Shown: positions 5,079-32,691 of the stretch, in pieces
Layout of the letters: each line of letters starts with the position of its first letter
How positions within the stretch are numbered: the first letter of the stretch is position 1
Assembly: GCA_023381415.1 (NCBI GenBank)
Contig: JAMCUN010000009.1
Coordinates: forward strand, 26,616 to 90,615
Direction of reading: 5' to 3'
Length of the DNA stretch: 64,000 nucleotides
From: Thermoplasmatota archaeon
GTDB taxonomy: Archaea > Thermoplasmatota > Thermoplasmata > Thermoplasmatales > GCA-001856825
The notes under the pieces: generated by a model
The model's database searches: none
Told to the model about the DNA's origin: nothing
What the model saw: only the letters and a program-made list of their open reading frames with translations
Translations under genes and position numbers: made by a program

Positions 5079-7085
5079 TCACCAGATTGTGATTATTCCT
5101 CTTCCAGTTGTCTTAGGATCGCTAGGATGTTTGAAGTTATCACCGAACTTGTAATGTACAACCACAGGTATTTCACCCCTGAATTTCTCTGGAGAATGAG
5201 GATCGTTTGATATCTGCCATTTTACCGATTCTTCCCGCACGTTGGCCCTCCAGCTTTGGGCCCAGCTGATGTAGAACCTTTGCTCAGGCGTAAGACCGTC
5301 TATTTCCCTTCTCAGTTCTGGATTCCTCCCAAGTTTCCTCTGCAATGCTTCGTATGCTATGCTTATCCCTCCAATATCTGCTATATTCTCTCCTAAAGTC
5401 AGTTCTCCATTCACCCGCAGCCCTGGCAGCGCCTCCAGTTCTCCGTAAAGATTCACCACTGTCTTCGCCCTCCTTTCAAACTCTTCTGCATCTTCCTTAG
5501 ACCACCAGTCCTTCAGGTTTCCATCCAGATCATACTTCCTGCCCTCATCGTCAAATCCGTGAGTAATCTCGTGAGCTATGATTCCGCCTGTTGCTCCGTA
5601 GTTCACCGCATCATCCATTGTAGGGTCAAAGAATGGCGGCTGCAGGATCCCAGCTGGAAAGACAATCTCATTCTTTGTTGGCGAAAAGTATGCATTTACC
5701 GTCGGGGGAGTCATCTCCCAAAGTTCCCTGTCCACCGGTTTATTGACCCTCCTGATTTCCCTCTCGAACTCGAATGCGTTACACCTGATTATGTTGCCAA
5801 AGAAATCGTCAGGGGAGATTTTGATGGATGAATAATCGATGAACTTATTCGGATATCCGATCTTGGCCCTGAACTTGCCGAATTTCTCCAATGCTGTCCT
5901 CTTCGTCTTTTCTGACATCCAGTCAAGTTTCGATAGCTTGTCTGAAAAAACCTCCCTGAGATCGTTAACCAGCTCCTCCATCTTAGCCTTCGACTCTTTC
6001 GTGAATTCCCTCTCCACATATAGCTTCCCCAGAGCTTCGCCCAGAAGCATATCTGTCAGCTGTACAACCTGCTTCCACCTCCTCTCTTCCCTCGGCCTTC
6101 CAAATAGCTTCCTTTCATAGAAGTCAAAATATTCTTCCCTCACTTCCTTGCTGAGGAATGGGGAAGCAAAGTGAAGGAGCTTCCAGGTGAGGTACGTCTT
6201 CCAGTCTTCGATCTTGACAGTATCCAGCATCGCCCCAAGGTTCGAAAAGAATTCGGGCTGTCTTATTACTATCTGGTCAACTTGAGGGAGGCCTATTTCT
6301 GAGAAGTATCTCTTGATGCCGAGCCTTGGGACCGCCCTTTCGAGTTCTGTGAACAGGAATCTGTTGTAGTTCCTCTCCGGATCCCTCAGCTCGACGGGAG
6401 TCCTGCTTGACCTGGCAAGTGCCAGTTCAATGCTGAATACTGTTTCAGCTGACCTTTCTGCATTCTCTCTGCTTTGCCCGTAAAGGCTGAAAATGTTTGC
6501 CACGTGCTTTCTGTAATCTTTTCTGATTCTCTCAAATGTATCTAGGAGGTAGTAGTCCCTGTTCGGTAGGGAGAGACCCCCCTGTTCCAGATAATAAGTA
6601 TATAAGGAGCTGTTCTTTTCGTCAGAATCTGATGAGAAAGAAAACATGGCCGGAAGTCCATTATGGTGTAATTTTGATACCACTGGGGCAATGTCGTCCA
6701 CAGTCTCAATGCCCTCTATGATCTCGGCAAAAACCATTATCGACTGGAATTTCAGTTCGTCTATCCTTGCCGTGTCCATTGCTGACAGATAGAATGATCC
6801 AAGCTGCTTACTGATGGGATCATCGTTTTTGTCACTAAACGCACAATCCTCAAGGATCTTCCCCAGGACATATCTGTTCTTGTCCACCAGTTCCATAAAC
6901 GCACTCCACTGCGTCTTGTCCTCGGGGATTGGATGCGTTCTTATCCAGTTTCCATTGCTATAGGTATAGAAGCTATCGTGGGGGAGGACCGATTTATCCA
7001 TATAATCTACTGAAAATCTTGGATTATCCGGCTTCTCGTTTGGCGCAATTTTCTCAATCCGTCCCCTTACATCTTCAAAATTCAT
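5079..7085 (-). CDS. M13 family zinc metalloendopeptidase (neprilysin/PepO-like)
   Basis: HExxH zinc site HEITHGFDDEG, downstream GENIADIGG (third ligand Glu region), NAYFSP motif. 668 aa is typical of M13. Confidence 0.85.
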   Translation of the reverse strand: MNFEDVRGRIEKIAPNEKPDNPRFSVDYMDKSVLPHDSFYTYSNGNWIRTHPIPEDKTQWSAFMELVDKNRYVLGKILEDCAFSDKNDDPISKQLGSFYLSAMDTARIDELKFQSIMVFAEIIEGIETVDDIAPVVSKLHHNGLPAMFSFSSDSDEKNSSLYTYYLEQGGLSLPNRDYYLLDTFERIRKDYRKHVANIFSLYGQSRENAERSAETVFSIELALARSSRTPVELRDPERNYNRFLFTELERAVPRLGIKRYFSEIGLPQVDQIVIRQPEFFSNLGAMLDTVKIEDWKTYLTWKLLHFASPFLSKEVREEYFDFYERKLFGRPREERRWKQVVQLTDMLLGEALGKLYVEREFTKESKAKMEELVNDLREVFSDKLSKLDWMSEKTKRTALEKFGKFRAKIGYPNKFIDYSSIKISPDDFFGNIIRCNAFEFEREIRRVNKPVDRELWEMTPPTVNAYFSPTKNEIVFPAGILQPPFFDPTMDDAVNYGATGGIIAHEITHGFDDEGRKYDLDGNLKDWWSKEDAEEFERRAKTVVNLYGELEALPGLRVNGELTLGENIADIGGISIAYEALQRKLGRNPELRREIDGLTPEQRFYISWAQSWRANVREESVKWQISNDPHSPEKFRGEIPVVVHYKFGDNFKHPSDPKTTGRGIITIW

Positions 7086-7281
7086 GGAAATTGATTGACT
7101 GATTAGATTAAGTTATTTCTCATGATTCCGCTTTGGGGACTCATTCGCTCAATGTACAAAATTTGACGTTCCATTTATGACTCCGACTTTTCACCCAGCA
7201 ATAATGAACTCTCCAAAAATAGAAGGCGTCTGGAAACAATGGAAACGTTGAGCCTTCCATTTCCAACATCGGAAAAGGAGA

Positions 7282-7518
7282 ATGATAGGTTTTGAATTGC
7301 CCCTACAAAACGCTAATATACTAATTTCGAGTGGAAAAAACATGGCAGAAGAAGAATCCATCATAGAAAGTTTCATTAGAGCGATAGAAGGAACACAGAG
7401 TTCAGCGGAGTTCAACTTTGACGGCCTGACAGTCAAGCTGTCTGGCACAGTTTCTATAGTTGTTAATGGGAAGGTAACCATAACTGCTCGGCCGGTCCAT
7501 GACAGGGACAAGGCTTAG
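7282..7518 (+). CDS. small hypothetical protein (78 aa; 58 aa if ATG 7342)
   Basis: Purine-rich AAAGGAGA directly 5' of ATG 7282. Beta-strand-like C-terminal half (FNFDGLTVKLSGTVSIVVNGKVTITA). No family recognised. Confidence 0.35.
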   Translation: MIGFELPLQNANILISSGKNMAEEESIIESFIRAIEGTQSSAEFNFDGLTVKLSGTVSIVVNGKVTITARPVHDRDKA

Positions 7519-7822
7519 GTACCCACAGCTGGATGGTTCGGCCAGGGTCTTATTGAGCGGGAAGGAGTTCTCAATTCGTTTTGAAGGCAGGGCCATATCC
7601 ATATTGGGGAATGAAGAGAACTACTCGTCGTTAATCCCGAAGCTTCCTTTCAGACTCAGGAACTTAAGTCTTTTGAGAAAAATGTCCAAACAAATTTCTG
7701 ATCTTGAATTTACCCTAAAAGTGGAGGATGAGAAGGGTGTCATGCTATCCTTGGGGAAAGGTGTGATCACTCCTCTGGGTCATTTCTCGTTCAGGCCTAG
7801 AATAAGAAAGTACCTGAAATGA
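7499..7822 (+). CDS. small hypothetical protein (107 aa)
   Basis: The ATG lies 20 nt inside the end of the preceding ORF, in another frame (operon-style overlap). Basic C terminus. No family recognised. Confidence 0.35.
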   Translation: MTGTRLRYPQLDGSARVLLSGKEFSIRFEGRAISILGNEENYSSLIPKLPFRLRNLSLLRKMSKQISDLEFTLKVEDEKGVMLSLGKGVITPLGHFSFRPRIRKYLK

Positions 7823-7842
7823 TATAGACTGCTCGTCAAGAC

Positions 7843-7858
7843 ACTGCAGGAATGCAGT
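7843..7858. terminator. hairpin ACTGCA-GGAA-TGCAGT between convergent genes
   Basis: Perfect 6-bp stem with a GGAA loop, 21 nt after the stop of 7499..7822. A second ACTGC copy at 7828..7832 could pair alternatively. Function not established. Confidence 0.25.
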
Positions 7859-7903
7859 CTGCTACAGTATCAAAAGATGGAGTGGAATTTGAAAAGCTCG
7901 ATT

Positions 7904-8248
7904 TCAGGATTTTATCGATGGGTTCGCTTCCATCTTTTTGTTCAGTTCACTCGCCAGGGCTTCCTCCGGTATCTTTCTGACAGTATCCCTTAGATAATCA
8001 ATGCCCTCAGGGTAAGAGATGGCGTTCCAGAGGCACGATACCTAACAGTTATTGCAACCGACCATGCAGTTATCCGGATTGAGAACCACTGCCTTTCTTA
8101 AGCTTCTGTCATAGCCGAATACATTCCTCTTTTCACCGCATGTCACAACACACATTCCGCAACCTGTGCACTTTTTAGGATCAACGATTGGATGCCAGTT
8201 TATATCACTCCTGCTCTTTCCATGCCAGGTCGCCAGTTCACTGACCAT
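7904..8248 (-). pseudogene. 2x[4Fe-4S] ferredoxin-like paralog interrupted by an in-frame TAG (8042..8044)
   Basis: The 68-aa ORF ends ...NPDNCMVGCNNC-TAG. The same frame continues VSCLWNAISYPEG... for 45 codons to TGA 7904..7906. This aligns with CTTCGKLCPENAISFP of the neighbouring paralog. Confidence 0.6.
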
Positions 8249-8639
8249 ATTTTAGCTCACTTCCTTCGTTCACATCGTGATCAGGAAATTTTGACAGCCT
8301 CCCCTCAAGCTCTTGTTTCACTGCAGGGAAGACTTTGTACTTGATTGTAGCTGCTCTGATGAAAGTCTTTGGATCGCATGGAAATGAAATCGCATTTTCT
8401 GGACAGAGTTTACCGCAGGTGGTGCATCCGAGCACACAGTTCTGGGGATTTGCAACCACTGGCCTGTGAGCACCGACGTTCCACTTGAATACGGAGTTTC
8501 CGCAAGTCAGAACACAAATCGAACAACCGCTGCAGGAGTTACTGGATATTTTTGGATACCAGGTCAATTCATCTCTTTTCACGCCGTGCCAAAGCTTCTT
8601 ACCTGACTCGTTGAGATTGGATTGAATACCTGTTGTCAT
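8238..8639 (-). CDS. 2x[4Fe-4S] ferredoxin-domain protein
   Basis: Two Cys clusters, CSGCSICVLTCG and CVLGCTTCGKLCP, preceded by a WHG...W.P motif. 133 aa. Confidence 0.8.
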   Translation of the reverse strand: MTTGIQSNLNESGKKLWHGVKRDELTWYPKISSNSCSGCSICVLTCGNSVFKWNVGAHRPVVANPQNCVLGCTTCGKLCPENAISFPCDPKTFIRAATIKYKVFPAVKQELEGRLSKFPDHDVNEGSELKYGQ

Positions 8640-8645
8640 ACTTCC

Positions 8646-8662
8646 ATATCATATTATGATAT
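8646..8662. promoter_or_regulatory. perfect 8-1-8 palindrome ATATCATA-T-TATGATAT, candidate operator
   Basis: Lies 7-23 nt upstream of the ferredoxin ATG (8639) and just downstream of an ATTAAAATAT TATA-like box (minus-strand sense). Its half-site recurs in the acr3 operon promoter. Confidence 0.35.
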
Positions 8663-8880
8663 TTTAATTTGAGGATTCTAATTCTCACGCCAGAACCCTC
8701 CCCAGCATATTGATAATCCCAACGCTTGTATCTATTGAAATAGAAACGATAAAGCTTGAACCTCAAGAGTGCTCCTAGCCCTTAATTTGAAGTGCTCTCT
8801 TGGTAAGAAATCAGCGCCTGTGCCGTTACCGTCAATGTCCTTGCTCTAAAAATCGATTCATTTTCTTCAATGCAGCTACT

Positions 8881-9255
8881 TCATAATGATACCCGTTTCC
8901 CTGTTCCCCTTGAACTTACTTCCTTCTTCCGACTGGAGTTAGGCGACACTATCTGTCTTACCAGGCTTTCATACCGTGGATTGATGAAATAATAGCTGAA
9001 TTTCCATTCCTCTCTTCTTTTAAGAAGCCCCACTTCATACATCTTCAGAAGATGTGCAGTCGCTGTTGGCTGTGGAAGCCCTAAAGCTGGTTGGAGTTCA
9101 CAGGAACACACGCTTCCGTACTTAGAGATTATATCCAGTATTGCTATCCTGTTTTTGTTTCCCAGCACCCTAAGTATCCTCGAGAAATCTTCATACTTGT
9201 CCGGGTCTACTTCTTCTATCTTCCTCGCGCTGCAGAAGTTTACGTCATCACTCAT
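8881..9255 (-). CDS. arsR: ArsR/SmtB family metalloregulator
   Basis: Winged HTH (NKNRIAILDIISKYGSVCSCELQPALGLPQPTATAHLLKMYEVGLL) with a CSC triad at the position of the ArsR CVC As(III) site. ATG 9255 forms an ATGA overlap with the acr3 stop; the longer ORF to 9324 would overlap acr3 by 73 nt. Confidence 0.8.
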   Translation of the reverse strand: MSDDVNFCSARKIEEVDPDKYEDFSRILRVLGNKNRIAILDIISKYGSVCSCELQPALGLPQPTATAHLLKMYEVGLLKRREEWKFSYYFINPRYESLVRQIVSPNSSRKKEVSSRGTGKRVSL

Positions 9256-10304
9256 TTGCCTATCTCCATTGAACTTAACCTCTTCTGCGTATTTATTTTC
9301 TGTTCTCTTCCAAGCTGAACCCATACAAGGAATAGCATCAGCGGGATCTCAAGCAATGGTCCGATAGCAGTAGTTATGACGACATAAGGGTACACGGCAA
9401 ACGCGGCTATCGCAATAGCAATGCTCACCTCAAAATCCCTGGCAGATACCGTAAATCCAATCGCAGTGGAGTCTGGGTAATTGTGTCTGAGTCTCCTTGA
9501 CGTGAGATAGCCTGTCTGAAAGAGGAGGAAATAGAAGATCAGCATAACGATGCCAACCATCCAGACCAGGGAGGGTGTGTCGATTATTCCAAACCCCTCT
9601 CCCCAGAATATAACCAGGATGGTGAAGAGTAATGCTACGGTCTGTACTGAACCCAGCCTATTTAGCACCCGCGAGAAGTAGTTCTTTTTTTGCAACAATC
9701 TTCTGGTTATTACCCCGGCGATCAATGGCAGTGCAAGGTACAAGATCACGCTCTCAAGGATCAATTCGGGTTTCACAATCACCGATGTACGTGCAAGAAG
9801 GTAAACTAGGAAAGGCGTTGTTATGACCTGGATAATGGAGTTCCACGCAACGAATGACACCCCAAGGGGAAGATTTCCATGGGCAAGATCTGTCCAGACC
9901 ATTACCATCGCAATGCACGGAGCAACTCCAAGCAGTATGATCCCCACCAGCATCTGAGATGCGACATTAGGTCCTATTAGATTCAGTGGCCAGTAGACTT
10001 CATATATGAAAAAGTAAGCTATTCCTGCAACCAGGAATGGAGCTATTGCGTAGTTGAGTAGCACCATCAGCCCTACAGTTTTGAAATTCCTGAGGCTCTT
10101 TCCCAGTTCATTCAGCCGGACCTTCGTCATGGCCGGATATATCATGAAGAAAAGACCTATTGGGATGCCGTAAGTTGCAACATCTGAGGTCCCAGCCTTA
10201 ACCTTGAATCCCAGGACTAGGCCTGCGATAATCGCTATTACGACAAAGACCGGAAACAGGATTGTCCTGATACCAATTTTCCGACTGATGCCCGCTTCCG
10301 TCAT
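9252..10304 (-). CDS. acr3: ACR3 family arsenite efflux permease
   Basis: About 10 TM segments. Conserved segment LLGVAPCIAMVMVWTDLAHGN with the invariant membrane Cys. ATG 10304 is 5 nt after the upstream stop; TTG 10313 is an alternative start. Confidence 0.85.
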   Translation of the reverse strand: MTEAGISRKIGIRTILFPVFVVIAIIAGLVLGFKVKAGTSDVATYGIPIGLFFMIYPAMTKVRLNELGKSLRNFKTVGLMVLLNYAIAPFLVAGIAYFFIYEVYWPLNLIGPNVASQMLVGIILLGVAPCIAMVMVWTDLAHGNLPLGVSFVAWNSIIQVITTPFLVYLLARTSVIVKPELILESVILYLALPLIAGVITRRLLQKKNYFSRVLNRLGSVQTVALLFTILVIFWGEGFGIIDTPSLVWMVGIVMLIFYFLLFQTGYLTSRRLRHNYPDSTAIGFTVSARDFEVSIAIAIAAFAVYPYVVITTAIGPLLEIPLMLFLVWVQLGREQKINTQKRLSSMEIGK

Positions 10305-10309
10305 TGTTA

Positions 10310-10819
10310 TCAACTTGATTTGATCAAGTTTATGAATGCTGCCGTAAATTCACCCGGGTAAAAGCGCGTTTTTGCTGTGATAATAGTTTCTGATGATCTC
10401 ACCACTTCTGATTTTACTGATATTGCTCCAGAATTCTCAATCTCCCTTCCTATGGGGTTGCGCACCATAATTCTTTCCCCATCCAACAGTCCGGCTATCG
10501 CCATGATGAGACTGGAGATGCGAAAATTTGCAAATAAAGTCCTATCATAGAACATCTTCCTTACGACACCAGCTGTTTCTTGATTCCAGAGCGAGTTTTC
10601 TTTTGACCCTAGCCCTAGCAAGATAGCTGGATCGCACTCCACTTTGGGACATGACTGGCGTCTTGAAGGTGTTATCCGATCAATTCCAGGTCTGCACTCG
10701 GGCGGCCTTTCTTCACATCCAGGCACATCCAAATCTGTCTCCCCATCCCGCACTCTGCAATATTTAACATGGGGTTCAAAGTAATGGCCATCATCCCGCA
10801 TTGTACCTGTATCTTTCAT
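10310..10819 (-). CDS. cysteine-rich hypothetical protein, first gene of the acr3-arsR operon
   Basis: 169 aa with five Cys in residues 21-62 (KYCRV, PGCEE, PECRP, QSCPK, VECDP). No family recognised. The coding call rests on tight linkage to acr3 and protein-like composition. Confidence 0.5.
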   Translation of the reverse strand: MKDTGTMRDDGHYFEPHVKYCRVRDGETDLDVPGCEERPPECRPGIDRITPSRRQSCPKVECDPAILLGLGSKENSLWNQETAGVVRKMFYDRTLFANFRISSLIMAIAGLLDGERIMVRNPIGREIENSGAISVKSEVVRSSETIITAKTRFYPGEFTAAFINLIKSS

Positions 10820-30192: not shown

Positions 30193-31650
30193 TTGTACCA
30201 TAAGCAACTCGTGCAGTCCTCTGAAGAGTCTAACAAGCTTAGAAAGGGGGCTATTGGGATCTGGCAGGGAATTTTTCAATCTGTATCCTATATAGCTCCA
30301 GCAGGCGACGTTGCAATATTGTTGGTCGGAACTTTTGCATTTGCCCTTCAGTTTTCCACGATAAGCGTGATCTTGGGATGGCTTATTTACGGTATAATGA
30401 TGATTGTTCCCTACAAATTCTCCAAGAAACTGGCAACTGCAGGTTCATACTATTCATACGCCGCCAGTAGCGGAGACGGAGGAATATGGGGAATAATGAC
30501 AGAACTTCCGTGGTTCTTTGACCAGTTTACTGGGGAATCATTCGCAATTCTTGGACTTGCTTCGTTCATTGCCCTGATATTCCCTTCGGTATTCTATTAC
30601 GTCTGGGTCCCCATTGCAATATTTGTCGCACTTTTTGGCCTTGTACTGCCATACCTTGGAATTAAGCTGTCCCTGAACTACGCGCTCTATACTGGTATGG
30701 CAGAGATTCTGTTCCTAATAATAGGAGCCGTCATAGTTATATTGAGAGTTGGATCCTCTCATCTATCGGTCCAGCCATTCACCATTCCAGCTGCTCTGAT
30801 AGGGCCCATCATGTTTGGTACAATATTTTCGATTGTGGACTTCATCGGACTTGGCTCTGTTACAACTACGTCAGAGGAAATCACCAAACCCAGGAAACAT
30901 ATCAGAAACTCATTGTTTTTTGCATGGCTTCTGGCCGGAGTAACCCTGATTCCTGCGACGTATGCTTTGACTGTTGGCTGGGGAATAGGAAACATAGCGA
31001 GCTATGCTGTTTCTCCTGACCCAGGACTGATCGTTTTTGGAAAGTTTTTGGGACCGATAGGGGCAGGCCTCATGATCATATTTACAGCTAACAGTTACCT
31101 CGACTATTCAGTGGCGAAAGTGAACGCTACAAACAGAGTATGGTATACCATGGCGAAGAATAAATTCGTCTTCCCTAGGTTTATGTCAAAGCTGAACAAG
31201 CACGGTGTCCCCGGAAACTCCATGATTGTCAACACGAGCGTAATCCTGATTCTCTCCCTGATTGCAGGCTTCATTTTGGGACCGGCATATGGTGCACTTG
31301 TTTTCCTAACCGCAATTGGAATAGGGTCGATATTTGTCCACCTGTTTATGAACGTTGCTTTTATACGATTCACTCAAAAGAACAAAACGAGAGAATCCCT
31401 GGTAAACTACGCCGCATCCATTGGAGGCATAATAGCTGCTCTTGCAATCATCACTGTATCATCCTATTCCACAGTGACAACCTATTTTGCATCTCCGTCT
31501 GTGTTAAATGCAGCTTACATGGGAGCAGTCATATTTGCATTGATATGGTCAGCGGTTATAGGCCCGATATTCGCAATATATCTGAAACACAGGAAGTCAG
31601 ATGTCCTGAAAAACTCGGCCTTGGTTCCAAGCGACGTGGAAGAGGATTGA
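30193..31650 (+). CDS. APC superfamily amino-acid permease
   Basis: About 12 TM segments with APC-like overall pattern. TTG start; the true start may be slightly downstream. The stop abuts the adh ATG with no spacer. Confidence 0.75.
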   Translation: MYHKQLVQSSEESNKLRKGAIGIWQGIFQSVSYIAPAGDVAILLVGTFAFALQFSTISVILGWLIYGIMMIVPYKFSKKLATAGSYYSYAASSGDGGIWGIMTELPWFFDQFTGESFAILGLASFIALIFPSVFYYVWVPIAIFVALFGLVLPYLGIKLSLNYALYTGMAEILFLIIGAVIVILRVGSSHLSVQPFTIPAALIGPIMFGTIFSIVDFIGLGSVTTTSEEITKPRKHIRNSLFFAWLLAGVTLIPATYALTVGWGIGNIASYAVSPDPGLIVFGKFLGPIGAGLMIIFTANSYLDYSVAKVNATNRVWYTMAKNKFVFPRFMSKLNKHGVPGNSMIVNTSVILILSLIAGFILGPAYGALVFLTAIGIGSIFVHLFMNVAFIRFTQKNKTRESLVNYAASIGGIIAALAIITVSSYSTVTTYFASPSVLNAAYMGAVIFALIWSAVIGPIFAIYLKHRKSDVLKNSALVPSDVEED

Positions 31651-32691
31651 ATGAAGGCAGCCAGACTAGAGTCTGTGGGAAAACCCTTAAAGCTCATGGA
31701 CATAGATACTCCGCCTGTTCCTAAGAAAGGTGCACTTGTCAGAGTCAAGGCAGCAGGCGTATGCCACAGTGATGTTCACCTGAGAGATGGAGGATACGGC
31801 AAAATAGACATCGTTAAGGATTTAGGAGCAAAGCTCCCAATAACACTAGGACATGAGATTGCTGGAATAGTGGAAGAAGTTGGTGAGGATGTGAGGGGGC
31901 TGTCTTCTGGAGACAGGGTGGTGGTTAACCCGTGGATAGGAGATGGAACCTGCAAATACTGTCTGTCAGGACTCACCAATCTATGCGACAGCCCGGTAAA
32001 TCTGGGTGAGAACACCGATGGAGGGTATGCCGAGCTTGTTGCAGTACCTGACTCTTCATACATTGCAAAAACAGGGTTGAGCTTCTCGGATGCAGCGCCG
32101 CTATCGTGCTCTGGACTTACCGTCTTTTCTGCGCTTAAAAAGGCGAGCTTGAATCCTTCTATGGTTTTGCTTCTAGTGGGGGCGGGAGGAGGCTTGGGCT
32201 CGATGGCAGTACAGCTTGGCAAACTTCTGGGAGCTCCCACGATTATAGGGGTAGATACGAACACTAAGGCGCTAAATCTCGCAAAGAGTCTGGGAGCTGA
32301 CATAACGCTAAATGTGAACGATCCGGACTTTGAAAAGGAAATCAAATCGACAACAGATGGTTACGGACCAGATGTGATAGTTGATTTTAACTCTTCGACC
32401 CAGACCCTGTCTAAGTTTATCCCACTCCTTGCAAAAGGAGGAAGATACATTATGGTTGGATTGTACGGAGGAAGATTGGAGTACGACACTCCAAATCTGA
32501 TAAATTACCAAAAGCAGATTTCAACCAGCGTGGTCGGCACTCTAAAGGAATTCAGGGAACTGATTGCGCTCTCTGATAAGAAATATCTAAAGTCGACGGT
32601 AACAAGCTTGTTCAAGCTGGGTGACGTAAACAAAGCCATTGACAACCTTAAAAAGGGGACAGCTCAGGGGAGACAAATAGTAGAAATCTAG
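31651..32691 (+). CDS. adh: zinc-dependent alcohol dehydrogenase (MDR family)
   Basis: GVCHSDVHL, GHEIAGIVEEVG, structural-zinc Cys cluster CKYCLSGLTNLC, Rossmann GAGGGLG. Confidence 0.9.
   Translation: MKAARLESVGKPLKLMDIDTPPVPKKGALVRVKAAGVCHSDVHLRDGGYGKIDIVKDLGAKLPITLGHEIAGIVEEVGEDVRGLSSGDRVVVNPWIGDGTCKYCLSGLTNLCDSPVNLGENTDGGYAELVAVPDSSYIAKTGLSFSDAAPLSCSGLTVFSALKKASLNPSMVLLLVGAGGGLGSMAVQLGKLLGAPTIIGVDTNTKALNLAKSLGADITLNVNDPDFEKEIKSTTDGYGPDVIVDFNSSTQTLSKFIPLLAKGGRYIMVGLYGGRLEYDTPNLINYQKQISTSVVGTLKEFRELIALSDKKYLKSTVTSLFKLGDVNKAIDNLKKGTAQGRQIVEI

What the first reader, a model, noticed from the sequence alone, without database searches (positions are those of the whole stretch)
7904..8248. Tandem ferredoxin paralog cut by an in-frame TAG inside its second Fe-S motif, with homology continuing past the stop
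The 68-aa ORF (8042..8248) aligns along its length with its upstream neighbour (133 aa, 8238..8639). Short copy: WHGKSRSDINWHP..CTGCGMCVVTCG..NPDNCMVGCNNC. Long copy: WHGVKRDELTWYP..CSGCSICVLTCG..NPQNCVLGCTTCGKLCPENAISFP. The short copy stops at TAG (8042..8044), where the long copy has Gly. The same frame then reads VSCLWNAISYPEGIDYLRD... for 45 more codons to TGA at 7904..7906. That restores the fourth Cys and the NAIS[YF]P block. It is therefore a very recent nonsense mutation, an assembly error, or a stop that is read through. TAG ends xpb, rpoD, both oxidoreductase subunits and the radical SAM gene here, which argues against genome-wide TAG recoding.
Basis: partly seen in the sequence, partly recalled or inferred. 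Interest (0 to 1): 0.55.

Follow-up and report, generated by a model that had tools for sequence, protein, structure and literature searches.

The report
Strain-specific nonsense mutation in a ferredoxin gene
One strain of an uncultured hot-spring archaeon carries a single C-to-T change that turns a glutamine codon into a stop in the middle of a small iron-sulfur protein gene, while a co-occurring sister strain keeps the gene intact, so this is an ordinary young loss-of-function allele and not a new way of reading the genetic code.

Summary
On the minus strand, a 68-codon ferredoxin ORF (8248..8045) ends at TAG (8044..8042). The same frame continues for 45 codons to TGA (7906..7904). That extension restores the fourth cysteine and the NAISYP block.

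The TAG is not an assembly error. It appears in at least 15 independent contigs from several assemblers and samples.

The TAG is derived. A sister strain 96-98% identical in DNA, often found in the same metagenomes, has an intact 114-aa gene with CAG (Gln) at that codon. The two nearest sister species also have CAG. None of 77 species-level orthologs has a stop there.

The site tolerates Q, R, S, M, G, T and E. TAG ends 14 of 61 genes in the window (23%). No Pyl gene or suppressor tRNA lies in the window, and no unusual RNA structure follows the stop.

Amino-acid changes are enriched in this gene between the strains (8 nonsynonymous to 4 synonymous, against 26 to 86 in neighbouring genes). A DJ-1-like gene in the same cluster is also degenerating.

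Best reading: a young CAG→TAG nonsense allele segregating in the population, in other words an incipient pseudogene. Readthrough cannot be excluded without expression data, but nothing supports it. Interest is low.

The parts
8045..8248 (-). FdS, 5' part. These are 68 sense codons of the short ferredoxin-like gene. They hold motif 1 (C27-x2-C30-x2-C33-x3-C37) and the first three Cys of motif 2 (C61, C65, C68). The ATG at 8248 overlaps the stop of the upstream paralog by 11 nt.
   Evidence: The same 68-aa product is called in at least 15 public contigs.
8042..8044 (-). Premature TAG at codon 69, derived from CAG (Gln) by a C→T change at window position 8044 (minus-strand reading).
   Evidence: the window and L001 have TAG. 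Sister-strain contigs L095-L099 and sister species L091 and L012 have CAG; 77 orthologous loci have Q 36, R 12, S 8, M 7, G 7, T 5, E 2 and no stop.
7904..8041 (-). FdS, 3' part. These are 45 codons plus TGA, now downstream of the stop. They encode the fourth Cys of motif 2 (C72), the LWNAISYP block and a C-terminal helical tail.
   Evidence: C72 is invariant in 48 full-length orthologs. The AlphaFold model of ortholog P0001 (pLDDT 90) places the stop inside helix 67-71 and shows three C-terminal helices, 83-91, 95-108 and 110-113. There are no indels or extra stops relative to the intact allele.
8238..8639 (-). FdL, the intact 133-aa paralog with a canonical ...CGKLCPENAISFP second motif. It is the first gene of the two-gene module.
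   Evidence: An FdL-like gene lies immediately upstream of FdS in almost all of the loci L012-L072 fetched from genome contigs, plus L100 and L101, from archaea and bacteria. NCBI names it 'ferredoxin family protein' (MCL4333433.1).
8646..8662 (.). Perfect inverted repeat ATATCATA-a-TATGATAT between an A/T-rich TATA-like stretch and the FdL start codon. It is a candidate operator; this is inferred, not shown.
   Evidence: It is conserved in sister strain L096 and nearly so in sister species L091 and L012.
8881..9324 (-). ArsR/SmtB-family metalloregulator directly upstream of the ferredoxin pair. Gene callers use a shorter 124-aa start in some contigs.
   Evidence: Pfam HTH_5. NCBIfam HTH_metalloreg scores 54.6 bits against a cutoff of 55. 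An ArsR-like gene lies next to the pair in roughly 25 of the related loci.
9252..10313 (-). ACR3-like (SBF superfamily) transporter in the same gene cluster.
   Evidence: Pfam SBF 137.6 bits. NCBIfam acr3 scores 199 bits, below the 282.8 cutoff.
10310..10819 (-). Degenerate DJ-1/PfpI-like ORF at the head of the cluster. It supports the idea of local relaxed selection.
   Evidence: Pfam scores only 19 bits, below cutoff. It is 41% identical to the sister-species ortholog, and the TICHS nucleophile motif is replaced by NFRIS. Between strains it is 85% identical in protein with pN/pS 1.6.

Best explanation
The short gene (FdS) is the second gene of a conserved two-gene module of paralogous 2x[4Fe-4S]-type ferredoxin-like proteins, FdL then FdS, which overlap and are probably translationally coupled. 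In the strain that the window comes from, a single C→T transition changed codon 69 from CAG (Gln) to TAG. Translation then most likely ends there. The 68-residue product lacks the last cluster-ligating cysteine (C72), the following strand and the C-terminal helices, which is 39% of the protein. It is therefore most likely non-functional or badly impaired. The allele is young: the 45 downstream codons are still open and still look like the intact allele. It coexists in the same communities with an intact CAG allele carried by a sister strain. In short, it is a segregating loss-of-function allele, an incipient pseudogene, in a gene already under relaxed constraint in this species. Shown: the stop is real, derived, strain-specific and absent from all relatives, and TAG is a normal stop in this window. 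Inferred: termination at the TAG and loss of function.
For: (1) The stop is real. The window and contigs L001-L011, from ENA, JGI and Logan assemblies, all carry TAG, and 10 of the 11 contigs are base-identical to the window over all 345 nt. (2) The stop is derived. Sister-strain contigs L095-L099 encode an intact 114-aa protein (P0097) with CAG at codon 69. Sister species L091 and L012 also have CAG. (3) It is a polymorphism. Both alleles occur in JGI 3300039716, ERZ27237285 and ERZ27237177. They form two linked haplotype blocks across positions 8277..7720, with mosaic flanks. (4) The stop is not conserved. In 77 orthologous loci codon 69 is Q, R, S, M, G, T or E and never a stop. (5) TAG is an ordinary stop here. 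It ends 14 of 61 crude gene calls (23%). This matches the 22% median of archaeal genomes without Pyl, against 5% with Pyl (PMC12626013). (6) No recoding machinery or signal was seen. The only tRNAs in the window are Leu-GAG and Met-CAU. No Pyl genes were found among the annotated window genes, and the radical SAM gene is AmmeMemoRadiSam rather than PylB. The RNA downstream of the TAG folds no better than shuffles (z = 0.26), and there is no Rfam match. No in-frame ATG, GTG or TTG lies in the roughly 37 codons after the TAG that could restart translation. (7) Constraint is relaxed. Between the strains FdS shows 8 nonsynonymous to 4 synonymous differences, against 26 to 86 pooled over ten neighbouring genes (Fisher p = 0.003; p = 0.009 against L096). 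The DJ-1-like gene of the same cluster is also degenerating. (8) The missing part matters. C72 is invariant in 48 orthologs. By textbook 2[4Fe-4S] ferredoxin chemistry (my own knowledge), the fourth Cys of a motif completes the ligation of the other cluster.
Against: The 45 downstream codons carry no second disabling mutation. Their differences from the intact allele (3 nonsynonymous, 2 synonymous) are no worse than in the translated part (5 nonsynonymous, 2 synonymous). Decay after the stop is therefore not demonstrated; it is merely undetectable at this divergence. The TAG allele is the commoner one among public contigs (at least 15 against 5). It has been around long enough to pick up one later substitution (R49S; L001 still has R49). 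It also sits on mosaic flanks, although assembly chimeras could mimic that mosaic. So the allele is tolerated and not merely transient. The FdL-FdS pair is otherwise nearly always kept intact, which makes outright loss somewhat unexpected. Near-cognate reading of UAG as Gln would regenerate exactly the ancestral protein. No expression data are available.
Confidence: 0.8

Rival explanations
1. Leaky termination. The TAG is occasionally misread by a near-cognate tRNA, most plausibly tRNA-Gln, which would restore the ancestral residue. The allele would then be a knock-down rather than a knock-out, and the downstream frame would stay under some selection.
For: The downstream frame is fully intact and its nonsynonymous-to-synonymous ratio is no worse than in the upstream part. 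The allele is common and widespread. Codon 69 tolerates many residues, so any inserted amino acid would probably be acceptable. That UAG is commonly misread as Gln is my own general knowledge and was not tested here.
Against: No stimulatory RNA structure follows the stop. The stop is not conserved in any relative. With only 5 substitutions downstream, the intact frame is equally expected for a young pseudogene. Basal readthrough is normally a small fraction of termination (my own knowledge).
Confidence: 0.1
2. Programmed recoding. TAG here encodes pyrrolysine or is read by a dedicated suppressor tRNA, as in Pyl-using archaea. These include the Methanomassiliicocci, which belong to the same phylum, Thermoplasmatota.
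For: The organism belongs to Thermoplasmatota, a phylum that contains Pyl users (bioRxiv 10.1101/2024.09.30.615893). Pyl can appear at tolerant positions by neutral drift, and no RNA signal is required (PMC12626013). TAG usage in genomes with Pyl ranges up to 27%.
Against: TAG usage of 23% fits genomes without Pyl, whose median is 22% against 5% with Pyl. There is no pyl gene, methylamine methyltransferase or tRNA-CUA in the 64 kb. The gene content looks like a heterotrophic Thermoplasmata archaeon: archaeal 2-oxoacid:ferredoxin oxidoreductase, aldehyde dehydrogenase, M13 peptidase and the Ta1207 family. The closest relatives are hot-spring and acid-mine Thermoplasmata MAGs, not Methanomassiliicocci. 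The sister strain has plain CAG. The 14 TAG-terminated genes have short, unremarkable in-frame extensions.
Confidence: 0.02
3. Sequencing or assembly error. The true codon would be a sense codon.
For: Nothing beyond the prior that single-base errors occur in MAGs.
Against: TAG is seen in the window and in at least 15 contigs from three assembly pipelines and about ten samples. It is linked to 12 other allele-specific SNPs within the gene. It is separable from a CAG contig in the same samples.
Confidence: 0.01
4. The truncated 68-aa protein is itself functional, for example as a one-cluster or 3Fe-4S partner of FdL, and the truncation is a tolerated or adaptive remodelling.
For: The 68-aa product keeps a complete first motif and three Cys of the second. 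The allele is frequent. FdL remains intact with few nonsynonymous changes.
Against: No natural ortholog among 77 loci or 95 database proteins ends near residue 68, except for fragments and frameshifts. C72, L73, W74 and I77 are invariant or nearly so. 39% of a confidently folded protein is removed, including part of the cluster-binding helix.
Confidence: 0.06

Closest known systems
Ordinary nonsense (amber) loss-of-function alleles and young pseudogenes segregating in microbial populations
   Same: It is a single derived base change creating a premature stop. An intact allele is present in a sister strain at 96-98% DNA identity and in all other relatives. The downstream frame is still open because little time has passed. 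The nonsynonymous-to-synonymous ratio is raised in the affected gene.
   Different: Nothing of substance differs. The only notable points are that the nonsense allele is the commoner of the two in public assemblies, and that the gene belongs to an otherwise strongly conserved two-gene module.
Pyrrolysine-containing genes with an in-frame TAG at a tolerant site, such as the neutral-drift cases mentioned in PMC12626013
   Same: There is an in-frame TAG at a variable, non-catalytic position, with homology continuing downstream.
   Different: There is no sign of Pyl machinery. TAG usage is high. The host is not a methanogen-type Thermoplasmata archaeon. The TAG is absent from the sister strain and from every ortholog.
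Clostridial-type 2x[4Fe-4S] ferredoxin domains and subunits (PFOR/OOR delta, AprB, HgcB, DPD Fe-S domain)
   Same: The intact ortholog has two Cys motifs and a confidently predicted ferredoxin core. Foldseek matches OOR 5c4i_B, AprB 1jnr_B, PFOR delta 9bt4_G and the HgcB model 9a0b_B (E about 1e-3, TM about 0.45-0.49 over 60-100 columns). Pfam Fer4 family hits are present.
   Different: The protein belongs to no named equivalog. The best NCBIfam hit is HgcB at 34.7 bits against a cutoff of 99, and the best PDB sequence hit has E = 3.7e-4. The family has its own N-terminal WHG-x2-R-x2-I-x-W-x-P segment and a C-terminal three-helix tail. Its second motif has C-x3-C-x2-C-x3-C spacing, followed by LW rather than P. 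It always comes with a paralogous partner, FdL.

Membership tests
2x[4Fe-4S] ferredoxin (Pfam Fer4 clan) | First cluster motif C-x2-C-x2-C-x3-C | tested here: met
   C27, C30, C33 and C37 are present in the 68-aa ORF. Fer4_2 scores 32.2 bits, above the 24.5 cutoff.
2x[4Fe-4S] ferredoxin (Pfam Fer4 clan) | Second complete four-Cys motif within one polypeptide | tested here: not met
   In the product as terminated at TAG, only C61, C65 and C68 remain, and C72 lies after the stop. The feature is met only if the stop is ignored (Fer4_7 29.8 bits against 27, residues 26-76) and in the intact allele P0097.
Young pseudogene / nonsense allele | Premature stop that is derived relative to intact orthologs and close relatives | tested here: met
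   TAG stands against CAG in the sister strain (L095-L099) and in two sister species. No stop is present in 77 loci.
Young pseudogene / nonsense allele | Relaxed selection (raised dN/dS) on the gene | tested here: met
   The counts are 8 nonsynonymous to 4 synonymous, against 26 to 86 in neighbouring genes (Fisher p = 0.003). The counts are small, and some changes lie on the intact-allele lineage (K26G).
Young pseudogene / nonsense allele | Secondary disabling mutations downstream of the first lesion | tested here: not met
   There are no indels or further stops in 7904..8041. This is expected if the lesion is young, so it dates the event rather than contradicting it.
Young pseudogene / nonsense allele | No full-length product made | not testable with these tools
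   This needs proteomics, ribosome profiling or transcript data from the source community.
Pyrrolysine-encoding TAG | pylTSBCD present in the genome | not testable with these tools
   Only 64 kb are available. Within it there is no tRNA-CUA and no pyl gene among the annotated ORFs.
Pyrrolysine-encoding TAG | Depleted use of TAG as a terminator | tested here: not met
   TAG ends 14 of 61 genes, or 23%. The medians are 5% for genomes with Pyl and 22% for genomes without (PMC12626013). The range for genomes with Pyl reaches 27%, so this is strong but not absolute.
Pyrrolysine-encoding TAG | In-frame TAG shared by orthologs in related Pyl-using genomes | tested here: not met
   No stop appears in 77 loci, and the sister strain has CAG.
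Programmed stop-codon readthrough | Conserved stop plus a downstream stimulatory RNA element | tested here: not met
   The stop is unique to one strain. The 121 nt from the stop onward fold at -28.3 kcal/mol, against -29.3 ± 3.7 for shuffles (z = 0.26). There is no Rfam match.
HgcB mercury-methylation ferredoxin (NF040864) | Score above the curated equivalog cutoff | tested here: not met
   The score is 34.7 bits against a cutoff of 99. No HgcA is nearby.

The most novel reading that the evidence does not exclude
The TAG is decoded often enough to yield full-length ferredoxin. The decoder could be a near-cognate tRNA-Gln, an unrecognised suppressor tRNA, or Pyl in a non-methanogenic Thermoplasmata archaeon. 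The amber allele would then be maintained alongside the CAG allele as a tunable, reduced-dosage variant of a conserved FdL-FdS redox module.
Probability: 0.05. Interest if true: 0.55.

Novelty: already known. Interest (0 to 1): 0.12.

Why it matters
As it stands it matters little. It is a clean, well-documented example of a nonsense allele caught while still polymorphic in a natural archaeal population, with the intact allele present in the same samples. Practically, annotators should flag 7904..8248 as one disrupted gene and not as a 68-aa 'ferredoxin'. If the amber codon were shown to be read through, it would be a rare case of functional stop suppression in a non-methanogenic archaeon. The more useful by-product is the FdL-FdS pair. 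It is an uncharacterised two-gene ferredoxin module conserved across archaeal and bacterial genomes and MAGs, and it is frequently linked to ArsR-type regulators.

Tried and rejected
- **Assembly error:** rejected, because many independent contigs carry TAG and the SNPs are linked.
- **Own species in genome contigs:** the scan found no contig of this species. The best hit was 73% identical (L012), so the organism could only be placed as an uncultured Thermoplasmata/Thermoplasmatota archaeon.
- **Allele counting in metagenome contigs:** two exact-pattern scans around the TAG/CAG site returned nothing. That collection evidently lacks these samples.
- **Other alleles or revertants at codon 69:** the 90%-identity cluster holds only three sequences, namely two 68-aa TAG forms and the 114-aa CAG form.
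- **Downstream RNA element:** none was found.
- **Independent restart after the TAG:** no in-frame ATG, GTG or TTG lies in the roughly 37 codons after it.
- **Pyl genes in the window:** none were found. The 348-aa radical SAM protein that might have been PylB is an AmmeMemoRadiSam enzyme.
- **Polarising the substitutions downstream of the TAG:** the outgroups are too diverged (pS about 0.7-0.8) and the sites too variable. A relative-rate test has no power with 3 amino-acid differences.
- **Naming the family:** NCBIfam, PDB sequence search and Foldseek gave only generic ferredoxin-domain matches.
- **P0077 (Conexivisphaera) context lookup:** it returned no record.

Full report
**1. What is in the sequence**

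On the minus strand, an ATG at 8248 opens a 68-codon ORF that ends at TAG (8044..8042). The same frame then runs for 45 more sense codons to TGA at 7906..7904. The upstream ORF (8639..8238, 133 aa) overlaps the short ORF's start by 11 nt.

With the stop masked, the 114-residue sequence aligns with the 133-aa neighbour over 105 residues. Identity is 35% and E = 5e-23. The alignment crosses the stop without a break, and Gly in the long copy sits opposite the TAG. Pfam's dicluster model Fer4_7 matches residues 26-76, spanning the stop, above its threshold.

**2. The family**

A search of 5.8 billion proteins returned 95 relatives. Most are 110-130 aa long and cover 95-100% of the fused sequence at up to 75% identity. 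Those that carry names are from Thermoplasmata, Thermoplasmatales, Nitrososphaeria, Conexivisphaera and Athalassotoga.

The alignments show an invariant second motif, C61-x3-C65-x2-C68-x3-C72, followed by L-W-x-A-I. C72 lies beyond the TAG.

A genome scan fetched 79 loci from species-level representatives. In nearly all loci with a true ortholog, an FdL-like paralog sits immediately upstream of FdS. This holds even in bacteria: Athalassotoga, Mesoaciditoga, Cryosericum and spirochaete MAGs. FdL-FdS is therefore a conserved two-gene module.

No curated family claims it. The best NCBIfam hit is HgcB at 34.7 bits against a cutoff of 99. The best PDB sequence hit has E = 3.7e-4.

An AlphaFold model of the closest intact database ortholog, P0001, has mean pLDDT 90. 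It shows a ferredoxin core plus three C-terminal helices, and the stop position falls inside helix 67-71. Foldseek returns only generic ferredoxin domains and subunits: OOR, AprB, PFOR delta, DPD and HgcB.

**3. Is the TAG real?**

Yes. The exact 68-aa product is on record in 14 contigs, and a one-residue variant (R49) in one more. These come from ENA (MEGAHIT), JGI and Logan assemblies of about ten samples. All 11 contigs fetched have TAG and an undamaged downstream frame. Ten are base-identical to the window over all 345 nt, and L001 differs at one base. An assembly error is excluded.

**4. Where did it come from?**

The 90%-identity cluster of the 68-aa protein also contains a 114-aa member, P0097. 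P0097 is encoded on five contigs with the same gene order (L095-L099). These contigs are 97.0-98.5% identical to the window in DNA.

P0097 has CAG (Gln) at codon 69. So do the orthologs in the two nearest sister species: L091 (the same PEPCK–DJ-1–ACR3-like–ArsR–FdL–FdS synteny) and L012 (DJ-1–ACR3-like–ArsR–FdL–FdS within the stretch held). TAG is therefore a derived single C→T transition.

Across 77 loci the codon encodes Q (36), R (12), S (8), M (7), G (7), T (5) or E (2). It is never a stop.

Both alleles occur in the same metagenomes: JGI 3300039716, ERZ27237285 and ERZ27237177. A SNP matrix shows two fully linked haplotype blocks across about 8277..7720, with mosaic flanks. This is a segregating polymorphism between co-occurring strains.

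L001 carries TAG but keeps the ancestral-like R49. The other TAG contigs have S49. At least one substitution therefore followed the nonsense mutation.

**5. Selection**

Between the strains, synonymous divergence in neighbouring genes is 0.01-0.09, with pN/pS mostly 0-0.35. FdS has pN/pS 0.61 upstream of the stop (5 nonsynonymous, 2 synonymous) and 0.42 downstream (3 nonsynonymous, 2 synonymous).

Pooled, FdS shows 8 nonsynonymous to 4 synonymous differences, against 26 to 86 in ten neighbours. Fisher's test gives p = 0.003, or p = 0.009 against L096. Constraint on FdS is relaxed in this species.

One unusual replacement, K26G next to the first Cys, lies on the intact-allele lineage.

The translated and untranslated halves do not differ. 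This is what a very young lesion would give, but it is also compatible with translation of the tail. The counts are too small to decide.

The DJ-1/PfpI-like gene of the same cluster is independently degenerating:
- It is 41% identical to the sister-species ortholog, against 74-89% for the other cluster genes in the comparison with sister species L012.
- The nucleophile motif TICHS is replaced by NFRIS.
- Between strains its pN/pS is 1.6.

**6. Recoding?**

- **Stop usage:** in a crude non-overlapping gene set of the window, TGA ends 39 genes, TAG 14 and TAA 8. In-frame extensions after TAG are short and unremarkable. The figure of 23% TAG matches the 22% median reported for archaea without Pyl, against 5% with Pyl, though genomes with Pyl range up to 27% (PMC12626013).
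- **Taxonomy:** within Thermoplasmatota, Pyl machinery is reported for the Methanomassiliicocci (bioRxiv 10.1101/2024.09.30.615893). The relatives found here are hot-spring and acid-mine Thermoplasmata MAGs. The window encodes a heterotroph-like gene set.
- **Machinery:** the window has no tRNA-CUA and no pyl gene. The only radical SAM protein of PylB-like size is an AmmeMemoRadiSam enzyme.
- **RNA signal:** the RNA after the TAG is not unusually structured (z = 0.26) and matches no Rfam family.
- **Restart:** no in-frame start codon follows the TAG closely enough to make the tail separately.

The rest of the genome could not be inspected.

**7. Verdict**

The finding is a real, derived, strain-specific amber mutation (CAG→TAG) in the second gene of a conserved ferredoxin pair. 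The most likely consequence is termination at codon 68 and loss of a functional FdS, making this an incipient pseudogene that is still polymorphic (confidence about 0.8).

Low-level near-cognate readthrough would regenerate the ancestral Gln protein. It is the main surviving alternative (about 0.1). A functional truncated protein (about 0.06), Pyl or a suppressor tRNA (about 0.02) and an assembly error (about 0.01) are unlikely.

The phenomenon is ordinary, so the interest score is low.

Noticed in passing
window 10310..10819 (-): The DJ-1/PfpI-like ORF looks like a decaying gene that is still open. Pfam scores 19 bits, below cutoff. It is only 41% identical to the sister-species ortholog (L091:5434-5946), while the other cluster genes are 74-89% identical in the comparison with sister species L012. 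The TICHS nucleophile motif is replaced by NFRIS. Between strains the protein is 85% identical with pN/pS about 1.6.
   Followed up: partly
window 8646..8662: A perfect 8+8 inverted repeat, ATATCATA-a-TATGATAT, lies between an A/T-rich TATA-like stretch and the FdL start codon. It is conserved in the sister strain and nearly so in two sister species. It is a candidate operator for the adjacent ArsR/SmtB regulator at 8881..9324.
   Followed up: partly
window 7904..8639 and loci L012-L072, L100, L101: The overlapping FdL-FdS tandem is an uncharacterised two-gene ferredoxin module. It is conserved in about 60 genomes of Thermoplasmata, Nitrososphaeria, Thermoproteati (Caldivirga, Vulcanisaeta) and bacteria (Athalassotoga, Mesoaciditoga, Cryosericum, spirochaetes). 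The isolate names suggest mostly hot-spring or acidic habitats. An ArsR-family gene is adjacent in about 25 loci and an ACR3-like transporter in about 15. DPANN-type loci (L074, L076-L084, L086, L087) carry a single copy with a canonical CP motif.
   Followed up: partly
L069:6001-6334 (I-plasma), L075:1665-1978, L071:560-784: Other assemblies show the FdS ortholog disrupted in different ways. L069 and L075 have frameshifts and L071 has a divergent truncated end. These could be assembly errors or independent losses, and none involves a stop at codon 69.
   Followed up: no
window 30193..32691 (+): An amino-acid permease gene ends in TGA at 31648..31650. The next gene (a Zn-dependent alcohol dehydrogenase family protein) starts with ATG at 31651 in the same frame. 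This mimics a 346-codon readthrough extension but is simply two abutting genes.
   Followed up: yes
window 6500..9400 versus L001-L011 and L095-L099: The flanks of the ferredoxin gene are mosaic among contigs. TAG-bearing contigs carry sister-strain alleles in the M13 peptidase gene and in the FdL upstream region. This suggests either frequent recombination between the two strains or chimeric metagenome assemblies.
   Followed up: partly
window 7282..7822 (+): Two small overlapping convergent ORFs (78 and 107 aa) lie downstream of FdS. They have no Pfam or NCBIfam match yet are conserved with almost only synonymous changes between strains (0-1 nonsynonymous against 1-4 synonymous per gene). 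They are probably real genes of unknown function.
   Followed up: no
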